64,000 bases of DNA from Escherichia coli O157:H7 (GTDB taxonomy: Bacteria > Pseudomonadota > Gammaproteobacteria > Enterobacterales > Enterobacteriaceae). The position numbers are program-made. Shown here in pieces: positions 30,101-33,100 of the stretch. Location: NCBI RefSeq assembly GCF_013167455.1, contig NZ_CP038328.1; one strand, written 5' to 3'. Each line of letters starts with the position of its first letter. Position 1 is the first letter of the stretch.

Positions 30101-33100
30101 TCTCGGCGAAGAGGTCATTACCACCAGTGGTGATTTTGTGCTGGCGAAAGTCTGGGCGATGGTGATGGCGTCAGTAGCACCGCCAGCATTGCAATTGCCA
30201 TTACCCGATCATTTCCAACCGACTGGCAGGCCGCTTCCTTTAGGCCTGTTACGGCGCGAATACATCATTCTGATTGAGATCGCACTGTCAGCGTTATCGC
30301 TGTTGCTTTGCGGCCTTCAGGCAGAACCGCGTTATATTATTTTGGTTCCTGTGCTGGCGGCTATCTGGATTATTGGCAGTCTGACAAGCAAAGTTTATAA
30401 AGCAGAAATCCAGCAACGCCGTGAGGCATTTAATCGCGCGAAAATGGACTATGACCATTTAGTCAGCCAGATCCAACAGTTGGGCGGGCTGGAAGGTTTT
30501 ATCGCCAAACGGGCGATGCTCGAAAAAATGAAGGACGAAATTCTCGGGTTACCGGAAGAGGAGAAACGCGCTCTGGCAGCACTTCATGACACTGCAAGGG
30601 AACGGCAGAAGCAGAAGTTTCTGGAGGGATTTTTTATTGATGCTGCCTCTATTCCCGGCGTTGGCCCTGCGCGTAAAGCGGCGTTACGGTCTTTTGGTAT
30701 TGAAACAGCCGCGGATGTTACCCGTCGTGGGGTTAAGCAAGTTAAAGGGTTTGGTGATCATCTGACCCAGGCGGTTATCGACTGGAAAGCGAGCTGTGAA
30801 CGCCGTTTTGTGTTCAGGCCGAACGAAGCGGTAACGCCTGCAGAAAGACAAGCGGTAATGGCGAAAATGGCCGCCAAACGACATCGGCTGGAATCGGCGT
30901 TGACTGTCGGCGCGACAGAGTTGCAGCGATTCCGCCTTCATGCTCCAGCACGGACCATGCCGTTGATGGAACCGTTACGTCAGGCGGCAGAAAAACTGGC
31001 TCAGGCGCAGGCAGATTTAAGCCGCTGCTGAGCCATTTTTCAATTAACGAAACACCACTTCCGCCCAGCGTGCCAGCCCGGCGGTGACGGAGCCAAAGTC
31101 ATCGCCGCCTGCAATCGGAATGCCCGGCAACTGTTCTGCCAGCGCTTTTTTAATCAGCGGAGAACGGGCGCTTCCGCCGGTCAGGTAGATAACGTCCGGT
31201 TTTTCCTGGGCGTTATCCAGCGCCAGTTGCACCTGTTCCTGAATCCGCGCCAGTGGCTGGCTGAGGGCGCTTTCCAGCCCTTGCTGGCTAATCAGCGTAG
31301 CCAGTTCATCGCTGATAAACGGCAGTGAGGCGCGGGTTTCCGCTACGCTTGAAAGCGCAATTTTGCACTCTTCTGCGCTACGCACCAGGCGATAGCTTAA
31401 ACGCTGACGCCAGACTTTCTGTAGCAGGGCCACTTTTTCCGGTTCGCGGGCATCGCGTACCAGATCGTTAAGCAGACGACCGTTGGCACTACTGTAGAAA
31501 TCACTCTGCGCAGGTACGTCGTTGATGGCAACCGCATTCCACCACGGCAGAATCGGCAGGGCGATGCCTTTTTCGGTTTCGCCACCCATACCCAGCAGTG
31601 GCATCAGGTTTTTAAACGCCAGTGCGATATCCAGATCGTTACCGCCAATACGGCAACCACTGTGACCCAGCAGGCTGGCTTCACGATCGAGACGCGAACG
31701 CCACTGCGGCCCCATCAGCAGCAATGAACAGTCAGTCGTACCACCGCCGATATCCACCACCAGTACCCGTTTTTCTTCCTGTAAGGTGGCTTCGTAATCC
31801 AGCCCAGCCGCTACCGGCTCGTACTGGAATACCACGTCCCTGAATCCGGCACGCTTCGCCGCGCGTTCCAGAATCCCTTGCGCCTGGGCGTTTGCTTCAT
31901 CGCCGCCCAGCCCCTGGAAGTTGATCGGGCGACCAATCACCGCCTGAGTAATCGCTTCTGGCAGCTGCGCTTGCGCCTGCTGGCGAATGTGCAACATCAT
32001 TGCGCAGACCAGATCCTCAAACAGCGCTACCTGCTGCGGTTTTAAGCCGCTGGCACCGAGGAACGATTTTGGTGATTTCACAAACCACACTTCTTCTGGA
32101 TCATCAATGTACTGTGCCAGTGAGGAAAGACCGAACTGCACGCTTTTCGCCGTAACATCGATATCTTCTTCGCGATTATAACGAATCGCCCGACGCAACA
32201 GTGCCTGCGTTTCATCGTCGTCTGCCGGAACATCATGATGGCGGTACAGCCATTCGCTTACCGCTTCACGCGTTGGCGCGCAAAGCATTGAAGGCAGCAG
32301 CGTGCTGTCGTTTTCCATTTTTAGCAAGTGCGGTTTACCGTCACGCATGACCGCTACTGAACAGTTTGCTGTACCGTAATCAAAACCAATAAACACGAAA
32401 TAATCCCCATGCCGGTGAAGAAGGGGCGTGACTTTAGCGAAATGTTGCCGTCGCGACAACCGGAATATGAAAGCAAAGCGCAGCGTCTGAATAACGTTTA
32501 TGCTGAAAGCGGATGAATAAGGAGATGCGATGTATACCCTGAACTGGCAGCCGCCGTATGACTGGTCGTGGATGTTGGGATTTCTCGCCGCCCGTGCAGT
32601 GAGTGGTGTGGAAACGGTCGCTGACGATTATTATGCCCGTAGTCTGGCGGTGGGCGAATATCGCGGCGTGGTGACTGCTATTCCGGATATAGCCCGCCAT
32701 ACTCTGCACATAAATTTAAGTGCAGATTTAGAACCCGTTGCCGCTGAGTGTCTGGCGAAAATGAGCCGCCTGCTTGATCTGCAATGTAACCCGCAGATTG
32801 TTAACGGTGCGTTGGGCAAGTTAGGCGCGGCGCGGCCCGGATTGCGTTTACCCGGCAGTGTTGATGCTTTTGAGCAAGGCGTGCGGGCGATTTTAGGCCA
32901 ACTGGTGAGCGTGGCGATGGCGGCAAAATTGACTGCCAAAGTGGTACAGCTTTATGGCGAACGGCTGGATGATTTTCCGGAGTATATCTGCTTCCCCACG
33001 CCTCAGCGGCTGGCAGCAGCAGACCCGCAGGCATTAAAAGCGTTAGGTATGCCGTTGAAACGGGCAGAGGCGCTGATTCATCTGGCAAATGCGGCGCTGG

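What the first reader, a model, noticed from the sequence alone, without database searches (positions are those of the whole stretch)
30250..31031. YegI kinase carries two hydrophobic segments and tandem helix-hairpin-helix motifs in its C-terminal third
Seen in translation: after the kinase core come two hydrophobic stretches (EYIILIEIALSALSLLLCGL and YIILVPVLAAIWIIGSL), then a coiled-coil-like charged region, then two HhH-like motifs (IPGVGPARKAALRSFGIETAADV and VKGFGDHLTQAVIDW). HhH motifs usually bind nucleic acid non-specifically. A membrane-anchored kinase with a nucleic-acid-binding tail would fit a sensor of invading or damaged DNA; that last step is inference.
Basis: inference. Interest (0 to 1): 0.4.

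Follow-up and report, generated by a model that had tools for sequence, protein, structure and literature searches.

The report
YegI kinase membrane anchor and HhH tail
The C-terminal third of the E. coli membrane kinase YegI really does hold two membrane-spanning helices and a predicted double helix-hairpin-helix domain, but both are already published or annotated, and nucleic-acid binding is still untested.

Summary
The window is E. coli chromosome. The ORF is yegI, the last gene of the yegL (vWA) - pphC (PP2C phosphatase) - yegI (Ser/Thr kinase) operon. All four quoted peptides are present in frame.

The two hydrophobic stretches are the published two-pass membrane anchor, with both termini cytoplasmic (Rajagopalan & Dworkin, PhoA-LacZ fusions).

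The two HhH motifs form a canonical (HhH)2 domain:
- The Pfam HHH_5 hit is below threshold for E. coli but recurs in 33 of 41 relatives.
- The family profile hits known (HhH)2 proteins in the PDB.
- The domain is the best-conserved stretch of the protein and is net basic in 35 of 41 relatives.

This is not new. COG4248, JGI and NCBI already name these proteins [quoted passage not shown]. The three-gene cassette is of the published TerY-P triad type.

The cassette is conserved in order across bacteria and Methanoregula archaea, with unrelated neighbours. Nucleic-acid binding is plausible (about 0.6) but untested. "Sensor of invading or damaged DNA" remains speculation (about 0.2).

Verdict: a real, correctly read and already annotated feature of modest interest.

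The parts
27677..28336 (+). yegL: 219-aa vWA-domain protein, first gene of the cassette. The MIDAS motif D27-x-S29-x-S31 is intact.
   Evidence: Pfam VWA 1.5e-9. RefSeq annotation. It is the best-conserved member of the triad across 80 loci, at 55-85% identity. MIDAS motif read from the translation.
28333..29094 (+). pphC (yegK): PP2C-type Ser/Thr phosphatase. Its start overlaps the yegL stop by 4 nt, and its stop overlaps the yegI ATG by 4 nt.
   Evidence: Pfam PP2C_2 8.5e-49. It dephosphorylates YegI in vitro (10.1101/303594).
29091..31031 (+). yegI: 646-aa membrane Ser/Thr kinase. The start is ATG 29091; the ORF lister's GTG at 29082 adds 3 residues.
   Evidence: The exact sequence equals YEGI_ECO57. 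100% DNA match to O157-type E. coli; present in 5416 of 5426 complete genomes.
29091..29990 (+). Hanks-type kinase core (aa 1-300). K39, D141, N143, D159, D161 and S162 are invariant. It has the atypical VGD and DSD motifs.
30009..30065 (+). Invariant C307-x5-H313-x8-C322-P-W-C325 putative zinc knuckle directly after the kinase core.
   Evidence: All four ligand residues are invariant in 41 relatives. The model shows short strands at 304-306 and 314-316. Zn binding is inferred.
30258..30317 (+). Transmembrane helix 1 (aa 390-409 in ATG numbering).
   Evidence: Kyte-Doolittle peak 2.31. Model helix 389-408. [quoted passage not shown]
30333..30383 (+). Transmembrane helix 2 (aa 415-431). It continues as a long cytoplasmic helix to aa 465.
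   Evidence: Kyte-Doolittle peak 2.07. Model helix 413-465. Published topology.
30387..30623 (+). Charged helical stalk (aa 433-511).
   Evidence: Model helices 413-465, 467-485, 487-500 and 502-511 at pLDDT above 90. Low sequence conservation.
30624..30815 (+). (HhH)2 domain (aa 512-575). Hairpin 1 is G523-V-G525-P (nt 30651-30719 motif). Hairpin 2 is G553-F-G555 (nt 30741-30785 motif). It is followed by the family-specific W565-R-x3-E570-x2-F573-x-F575.
30816..31028 (+). Long C-terminal helix (aa 583-645) carrying the published autophosphorylation sites S602 and S644. It is inferred to run back to the membrane.
   Evidence: Model helix 583-645. S602 and S644 checked in the sequence and in the paper. 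Longer relatives have a third TM at about 652-668 directly after this helix.

Best explanation
The region is the C-terminal third of YegI, the kinase of a self-contained vWA-PP2C-kinase cassette (yegL-pphC-yegI) of the TerY-P triad type.

Architecture (shown or strongly predicted):
- Hanks-type kinase core.
- Invariant CHCC zinc knuckle.
- Helical TM hairpin, N-in/C-in.
- Cytoplasmic helical stalk.
- Canonical (HhH)2 domain.
- A roughly 60-residue helix that returns toward the membrane.

The (HhH)2 domain would therefore sit at the membrane-distal tip of an antiparallel stalk in the cytoplasm.

Mechanism (inferred):
1. The (HhH)2 tip binds the sugar-phosphate backbone of nucleic acid, most likely dsDNA, without sequence specificity.
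2. Several membrane-bound YegI molecules on one nucleic-acid molecule are brought together.
3. This favours the trans-autophosphorylation of Ser162, which shows second-order kinetics in vitro.
4. PphC resets the kinase.
5. The highly conserved vWA protein YegL is the likely partner or output.

My sub-probabilities:
- (HhH)2 fold: about 0.9.
- Nucleic-acid binding: about 0.6.
- Nucleic acid is the activating signal: about 0.35.
- The signal is invading or damaged DNA: about 0.2.
For: Identity and operon.

TM hairpin: hydrophobicity, model helices and published PhoA-LacZ topology.

(HhH)2 domain:
- HHH_5 hit in E. coli YegI and in 33 of 41 relatives, best E-value 3.3e-6.
- Family profile against PDB sequences returns almost only HhH proteins: L32e N-terminus 0.0026, Pol IV 0.01, REV1 0.047, then UvrC, Hel308, ComEA and Rad51.
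- AF2 model of aa 497-600 has pLDDT 90.

Functional constraint:
- The (HhH)2 domain is as conserved as the kinase core or more so (majority-residue fraction 0.60 versus 0.58; identity to E. coli 0.53 versus 0.47).
- R528 is basic in 95%, K529 in 66%, R566 in 98% and R572 in 76% of relatives. Net charge is positive in 35 of 41.
- Hairpin spacing is fixed at 30 residues in 165 of 168 relatives.

Geometry: relatives with a third TM at about 652-668 followed by TPR, SH3, TonB_C or PG-binding domains.

Cassette: same gene order in nearly all of 80 loci from many bacterial phyla and Methanoregula, with unrelated flanks.

Kinetics and PphC action.

Links to DNA:
- YegI and YegL overproduction raises DNA damage.
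- Other TerY-P kinases carry OB-fold or Zn-ribbon tails read as nucleic-acid binding.
- Some loci have adjacent Mrr-type nucleases or defence genes.
Against: - No binding data exist.
- The E. coli HHH_5 score (18-22 bits) is below Pfam's threshold of 27.
- Foldseek against the PDB gave no significant hit (best E 0.26).
- PADLOC's TerY-P models do not recognise the three proteins (TerY E 0.017 only).
- The cassette is near-universal in E. coli and mostly flanked by housekeeping genes. That is unusual for a defence system.
- Published work found no condition under which the operon is expressed.
- Many unrelated membrane proteins also score as DNA-damage-up proteins, so one search is weak evidence.
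- I could not inspect the stalk geometry. No coordinates or PAE were available.
Confidence: 0.55

Rival explanations
1. The (HhH)2 domain is a protein-protein module rather than a nucleic-acid binder. It would dimerise YegI at the stalk tip, as ERCC1-XPF (HhH)2 domains do, or dock YegL, PphC or a substrate, as NusA AR2 docks the RNA polymerase alpha CTD. That would set up trans-autophosphorylation.
Against: Both hairpins keep the canonical G-h-G motif followed by conserved basic residues. The domain is net positive in 35 of 41 relatives. By contrast, the NusA 'acidic repeats' are strongly acidic (established knowledge). Sequence-profile hits are to nucleic-acid-contacting HhH units. The two roles are not exclusive: XPF-ERCC1 does both.
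Confidence: 0.3
2. The tail binds nucleic acid only to position the kinase, for example at the nucleoid-membrane interface or on RNA. The true activating signal comes from elsewhere, such as YegL and its metal site, or envelope cues. The latter are sensed in longer relatives by periplasmic TPR, TonB_C or PG-binding domains.
For: Relatives add a third TM and periplasmic domains after the tail, which suggests envelope input. YegL has an intact MIDAS motif and is the best-conserved protein of the triad. The best profile hit is an rRNA-associated ribosomal protein extension.
Against: E. coli YegI has only a 5-residue periplasmic loop and no sensor domain. That leaves the (HhH)2 domain as the only candidate input module in the commonest architecture. 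There are no data on localisation.
Confidence: 0.15
3. The motifs are chance look-alikes and the tail is just a helical spacer.
For: The Pfam score is below threshold. Foldseek is not significant.
Confidence: 0.03

Closest known systems
E. coli YegI as characterised by Rajagopalan & Dworkin (bioRxiv 10.1101/819920; FEBS Lett 2020)
   Same: It is the same protein: this is the O157-type allele, and the paper used the REL606 allele. Published findings are an active Ser kinase with atypical VGD and DSD motifs, Ser162 autophosphorylation, second-order kinetics, and a two-pass inner-membrane topology with both ends cytoplasmic. The sites S602 and S644 lie in the C-terminal helix.
   Different: The preprint never mentions a helix-hairpin-helix domain (0 occurrences). 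It treats the tail only as a phosphorylation site region. No nucleic-acid experiment is reported.
COG4248 / NCBI 'helix-hairpin-helix domain-containing protein' annotation
   Same: [quoted passage not shown] JGI names the homologues 'DNA-binding helix-hairpin-helix protein with protein kinase domain'. NCBI names some full-length E. coli members of the same 90% cluster 'helix-hairpin-helix domain-containing protein'.
   Different: These are computational names only. I did not look up the COG assignment of this exact protein directly; it is inferred from the JGI product names of close homologues.
TerY-P triad (Anantharaman, Iyer & Aravind 2012; anti-phage TerY-P of Gao et al. 2020)
   Same: Both are three-gene vWA + PP2C + Ser/Thr kinase cassettes. 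The kinase is extended at the C-terminus by a module of a kind that can bind nucleic acid. The triad occasionally neighbours restriction-type nucleases.
   Different: The tail here is CHCC knuckle + TM hairpin + (HhH)2. It is not the OB fold of the tested defence system, nor the Zn ribbon alone as in CoCoNuT-linked triads. PADLOC TerY-P models do not match. The cassette is near-core in E. coli. No phage phenotype is known. I could not retrieve the 2012 paper, so whether it already lists this HhH variant is unchecked.
(HhH)2 domains of Rad51/RadA N-terminus, UvrC C-terminus, ComEA, DisA
   Same: The predicted fold is the same, with two G-h-G hairpins about 30 residues apart. ComEA is also a membrane-anchored (HhH)2 protein. 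DisA also couples an (HhH)2 DNA-scanning domain through a helical spine to a signalling enzyme.
   Different: Sequence similarity is marginal (E 0.003-2). The YegI family has a connector 3 residues shorter and a specific W-R-x3-E-x2-F-x-F extension. The output domain is a protein kinase, not a recombinase, nuclease or cyclase.

Membership tests
(HhH)2 domain (Pfam HHH_5, HhH clan) | Two consecutive helix-hairpin-helix motifs with G-h-G hairpins | tested here: met
   The hairpins are G523-V-G525 and G553-F-G555. G525 is invariant and G553/G555 are present in 40 of 41 relatives. 168 of 214 relatives keep both strict hairpins, 165 of them 30 residues apart.
(HhH)2 domain (Pfam HHH_5, HhH clan) | Score at or above Pfam's gathering threshold (27 bits) | tested here: not met
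   E. coli YegI scores 18.2 bits (full length), 20.1 bits (tail) and 21.8 bits (aa 497-600). 33 of 41 relatives match at E <= 0.1, best 3.3e-6.
(HhH)2 domain (Pfam HHH_5, HhH clan) | Compact helical (HhH)2 fold | tested here: met
(HhH)2 domain (Pfam HHH_5, HhH clan) | Sequence-independent nucleic-acid binding | not testable with these tools
   The only evidence is indirect: conserved basic residues and net positive charge.
Hanks-type (eukaryote-like) Ser/Thr kinase | Bilobal protein-kinase fold | tested here: met
Hanks-type (eukaryote-like) Ser/Thr kinase | Canonical catalytic motifs (HRD, DFG) and a Pfam Pkinase match | tested here: not met
   E. coli YegI has no Pkinase hit at E <= 1. The motifs are VGD..N and DSD. 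K39, D141, N143 and D159 are invariant. Kinase activity is nevertheless published.
TerY-P triad | Adjacent co-oriented vWA, PP2C and Ser/Thr kinase genes | tested here: met
   In the window the genes have overlapping start and stop codons. The same order is found in nearly all of 80 loci with enough upstream DNA.
TerY-P triad | Recognition by the models of the validated defence system (PADLOC TerY-P) | tested here: not met
   YegL versus TerY gives E 0.017 and 12.6 bits. PphC has no hit. YegI gives only generic kinase hits.
TerY-P triad | Anti-phage or stress phenotype | not testable with these tools
   I found no published phenotype beyond DNA-damage-up on overproduction and recurrent mutations in long-term evolution lines, cited.
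Two-pass (hairpin) inner-membrane protein, N-in/C-in | Two hydrophobic helices with a short periplasmic loop and cytoplasmic termini | tested here: met
   Kyte-Doolittle peaks are 2.31 and 2.07, joined by the 5-residue loop QAEPR, with basic residues on both cytoplasmic sides. The model has helices 389-408 and 413-465. The topology is experimentally validated in the literature.

The most novel reading that the evidence does not exclude
YegL-PphC-YegI is a near-core chromosomal surveillance module. The (HhH)2 tip of a membrane-anchored stalk would detect DNA at the inner face of the membrane, for example phage or plasmid DNA as it enters, or nucleoid DNA displaced by damage. DNA-templated clustering would switch on the kinase, with YegL as effector and PphC as reset. 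This would be a protein-kinase analogue of DisA-type DNA scanning and a new input class for TerY-P-like systems.
Probability: 0.15. Interest if true: 0.7.

Novelty: already known. Interest (0 to 1): 0.25.

Why it matters
YegI is one of very few Hanks-type kinases in E. coli. Neither its signal nor its substrates are known. If the (HhH)2 tip does bind nucleic acid, that gives a concrete, testable candidate for the missing input. It would also link a cassette found in many bacterial phyla and some archaea to nucleic-acid sensing. As it stands, the finding restates existing annotation: the published membrane topology and the COG/NCBI HhH name. It adds only supporting detail.

Tried and rejected
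- **PADLOC scan of the three proteins** at E <= 0.01 and <= 10: no TerY-P membership.
- **Single-sequence search of the tail against PDB sequences:** only noise and a weak Rad51 hit.
- **Search for a conserved fourth gene.** I clustered 398 neighbouring ORFs from about 80 loci. Only a lineage-specific TetR regulator recurs, in 12 loci. The rest are unrelated. I therefore rejected a conserved effector or a consistent defence-island context.
- **"Kinase-less" tail proteins as an independent architecture:** rejected for P0144, which is a yegI-like gene split by an inserted opposite-strand gene. P0196 is on too short a contig to judge.
- **Phage-borne origin:** only 3 weak loci in 2.9 million viral contigs.
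- **Papers not held:** Anantharaman et al. 2012 and the FEBS Letters version of the YegI paper. The supplement of the DNA-damage screen is also not held.
- **Full-text search for papers combining HhH, PP2C, vWA and kinase:** none.
- **Coiled-coil character of the stalk, and packing of the tail against the kinase:** not assessable, because model coordinates and PAE are not exposed.
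Full report
**What is in the window**

The window is E. coli chromosome. Bases 27600-31100 match O157-type strains at 100%. The stretch is present in 5416 of 5426 complete E. coli genomes, annotated yegL / pphC / yegI, with yegD convergent downstream.

The ORF list gives three genes:
- yegL at 27677-28336, a vWA-domain protein.
- pphC at 28333-29094, a PP2C_2 phosphatase (8.5e-49).
- A 649-aa ORF from the GTG at 29082 to 31031.

The real yegI start is the ATG at 29091. The 646-aa product is identical to UniProt YEGI_ECO57. The ATG overlaps the pphC stop by 4 nt, as described in the literature.

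**Check of the observation**

All four quoted peptides are in frame at nt 30258-30317, 30333-30383, 30651-30719 and 30741-30785.

The two hydrophobic stretches are the only strongly hydrophobic 19-residue windows in the protein, with Kyte-Doolittle means of 2.31 and 2.07. They are joined by the five-residue loop QAEPR, and basic residues lie on both outer sides.

**The membrane anchor is already published**

Rajagopalan & Dworkin (bioRxiv 10.1101/819920; later FEBS Lett 2020) reported the following:
- YegI needs detergent for purification.
- Phobius predicts two TM helices.
- PhoA-LacZ-alpha fusions at residues 340, 390, 414, 432, 439 and 646 were used to validate a two-pass topology with both termini cytoplasmic.
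- YegI is an active Ser kinase despite VGD and DSD in place of HRD and DFG.
- Ser162 autophosphorylation is essential, and activation is second order in enzyme.
- S602 and S644 in the tail are also phosphorylated.

PphC dephosphorylates YegI (10.1101/303594). The preprint never mentions a helix-hairpin-helix domain.

**The HhH part**

By sequence:
- E. coli YegI hits Pfam HHH_5 below threshold. Scores are 18.2, 20.1 and 21.8 bits, depending on the fragment, against a cut-off of 27.
- The tail (aa 437-649 of the ORF) defines a large family: 2076 representative clusters at E <= 1e-3. Most are about 640-655 aa with the same layout.
- In an alignment of 41 full-length relatives (32-50% identical; A1), 33 hit HHH_5 on their own, the best at 3.3e-6. 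Fourteen also hit IMS_HHH.
- A profile of aa 497-600 searched against all PDB sequences returns almost only HhH proteins. These are the haloarchaeal L32e N-terminal extension (0.0026), DNA polymerase IV (0.01), REV1 (0.047), then UvrC, Hel308, ComEA and Rad51.

By predicted structure:
- The full-length AlphaFold2 model is confident (mean pLDDT 92.3, pTM 0.78).
- A separate model of aa 497-600 has pLDDT 90.1.
- Foldseek ranks the same proteins (Rad51, Dmc1, RadA, DisA, UvrC, ComEA), but none is significant; the best E is 0.26.

I take the (HhH)2 fold as established at the level a prediction allows, about 0.9.

**Signs of function**

- The (HhH)2 segment is the most conserved part of the protein. 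Its majority-residue fraction is 0.60, against 0.58 for the kinase core. The stalk scores 0.37 and the TM hairpin 0.25.
- G525, A540, W565 and F573 are invariant.
- Basic residues follow hairpin 1: R528 is basic in 95% of relatives and K529 in 66%. R566 (98%) and R572 (76%) are also basic.
- The domain is net positive in 35 of 41 relatives.
- Among 214 retrieved relatives, 168 keep two strict G-h-G hairpins, 165 of them exactly 30 residues apart.

This pattern fits a backbone-binding HhH unit. It is unlike the acidic, protein-binding NusA repeats (established knowledge). It is not proof of binding.

**Overall anatomy**

In ATG numbering:
- Invariant C307-x5-H313-x8-C322-P-W-C325 knuckle.
- Poorly conserved linker.
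- TM1, aa 389-408.
- TM2, continuing as one helix to aa 465.
- Helices 467-485, 487-500 and 502-511.
- (HhH)2, aa 512-575.
- One long helix, aa 583-645.

Longer relatives (786-1006 aa) have a third hydrophobic helix at about 652-668, immediately after that last helix. It is followed by TPR or SH3 domains. Other tail-bearing relatives likewise have a TM helix just after the tail, followed by TonB_C or peptidoglycan-binding domains. From this I infer that the last helix runs back to the membrane. The (HhH)2 domain would then sit at the membrane-distal tip of an antiparallel stalk. I could not inspect coordinates or PAE, so this geometry is inference.

**Genomic context**

- A scan of one genome per species found at least 510 loci.
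- The best 80 span Proteobacteria, Firmicutes, Actinobacteria, Acidobacteria, Cyanobacteria, Planctomycetes, Chloroflexi and Methanoregula archaea.
- In nearly every locus with enough upstream DNA, the order yegL-pphC-yegI is kept.
- YegL is the best conserved, at 55-85% identity.
- Neighbours are otherwise unrelated. Clustering 398 flanking ORFs gives only a lineage-specific TetR regulator in 12 loci.
- A Pfam/PADLOC census of 146 neighbours shows scattered Mrr-type nucleases (4), PIN (3), SNase (2), IS21, HipA, JetB, DrmD, LmuA-like and RT hits among many housekeeping genes.
- Individual loci have a co-oriented Mrr nuclease, or pP_pnuc/SMODS genes.
- Only 3 weak loci occur in 2.9 million viral contigs.

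This is a self-contained, horizontally mobile three-gene cassette. Some copies sit in defence-type regions, but there is no fixed partner.

**Comparison with what is known**

- The vWA + PP2C + kinase arrangement is the TerY-P triad of Anantharaman et al. 2012, as summarised in PMC11090510 and PMC4978471.
- A TerY-P variant whose kinase carries an OB fold protects against T7-like phages (Gao et al. 2020).
- Koonin and colleagues read the OB fold and the Zn ribbon of other variants as possible nucleic-acid binders.
- PADLOC's models do not recognise YegL, PphC or YegI. YegLKI is therefore at best a distant branch of that kind.
- The HhH domain itself is already annotated. [quoted passage not shown] JGI uses 'DNA-binding helix-hairpin-helix protein with protein kinase domain' for the homologues. 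NCBI names some full-length E. coli members 'helix-hairpin-helix domain-containing protein'.

**Indirect links to DNA**

In the E. coli overexpression screen of Xia et al., YegI (at least 5-fold) and YegL (a 'strong' phenotype) are DNA-damage-up proteins (10.1101/354589). Many membrane proteins also score in that screen, so this is weak support. The PphC paper notes that yegI mutations recur in long-term evolution lines and that no expressing condition was found.

**Mechanism I commit to**

The (HhH)2 tip binds nucleic-acid backbone non-specifically. Co-binding of several membrane-anchored YegI molecules promotes trans-autophosphorylation. PphC resets the kinase, and YegL is the partner or output.

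Shown:
- Kinase activity, topology and PphC action, all from the literature.
- Architecture, conservation and cassette structure, from this work.

Inferred:
- Nucleic-acid binding, about 0.6.
- Nucleic acid as the activating signal, about 0.35.
- Invading or damaged DNA as that signal, about 0.2.

The main rival (0.3) is a protein-protein or dimerisation role for the (HhH)2 domain. The NusA AR2 and SAM hits, the family-specific W-R-x3-E-x2-F-x-F extension and the dimer-type kinetics support it.

**Verdict**

The functional leap is untested. Novelty: already known. The new details from this work are:
- The (HhH)2 domain is the most constrained region of the protein.
- The CHCC knuckle is invariant.
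- Variants exist with a third TM plus periplasmic domains.
- The triad is strictly conserved across bacteria and into archaea.

These are useful but incremental. Interest 0.25.

Noticed in passing
window 30009-30065 (+): An invariant C307-x5-H313-x8-C322-P-W-C325 motif lies directly after the kinase core in all 41 relatives. It is a probable zinc knuckle or ribbon. Other TerY-P kinases are reported to carry a C-terminal Zn ribbon (PMC11090510).
   Followed up: partly
P0165, P0209, P0217, P0169, P0146, P0234; locus L086:5001-7739: Longer relatives (786-1006 aa) add a third TM helix at about aa 652-668, right after the C-terminal helix, followed by TPR or SH3 domains. Other tail-bearing relatives (P0196, P0170, P0221) have a TM helix just after the tail followed by TonB_C or PG-binding domains. 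These added domains are presumably periplasmic. This implies that the end of the tail lies at the membrane.
   Followed up: partly
window 29082-29093: The mechanical ORF starts at the GTG at 29082 (649 aa). The annotated protein starts at the ATG at 29091 (646 aa, identical to YEGI_ECO57) and overlaps the pphC stop in ATGA. The yegL and pphC genes also overlap by 4 nt (28333-28336), which suggests translational coupling.
   Followed up: yes
window 27677-31031 (literature): In an E. coli overexpression screen (bioRxiv 10.1101/354589), overproduced YegI (at least 5-fold) and YegL ('strong') are 'DNA-damage-up proteins'. The supplement with details is not held.
   Followed up: partly
window 29091 region; locus L084:2736-6557: The cassette is repeatedly interrupted by insertions. 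K-12 strains carry yegJ between pphC and yegI; it is absent from this window. In metagenomic locus L084 the kinase part (356 aa) and the tail part (518 aa) are split by a 330-aa gene on the opposite strand. The PphC paper also cites recurrent yegI mutations in long-term evolution lines.
   Followed up: partly
window 31031-31044: The stops of yegI (+) and the convergent yegD (-, Hsp70/actin-like) are only 12 nt apart. There is no room for separate terminators. The yegD neighbour is specific to E. coli; among the other 79 genome loci scanned it was found in none.
   Followed up: no
loci L038, L039, L044-L047, L053, L060, L061, L065, L070: The complete yegL-pphC-yegI cassette occurs in Methanoregula and Methanomicrobiales archaeal MAGs, at 33-36% kinase identity and about 60% YegL identity. 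This indicates inter-domain transfer.
   Followed up: partly
loci L003:3636-4388, L022:3518-4219, L086:7812-11018: Some cassettes are directly flanked by co-oriented Mrr-type restriction nuclease genes, or by pP_pnuc_1 and SMODS genes. Most loci have housekeeping neighbours instead.
   Followed up: partly
window 27677-28336: YegL (vWA, with an intact DxSxS MIDAS motif) is the most conserved protein of the triad across phyla. It is 55-85% identical, against 31-65% for PphC and 33-62% for YegI. This hints that it is the functional core or effector.
   Followed up: no
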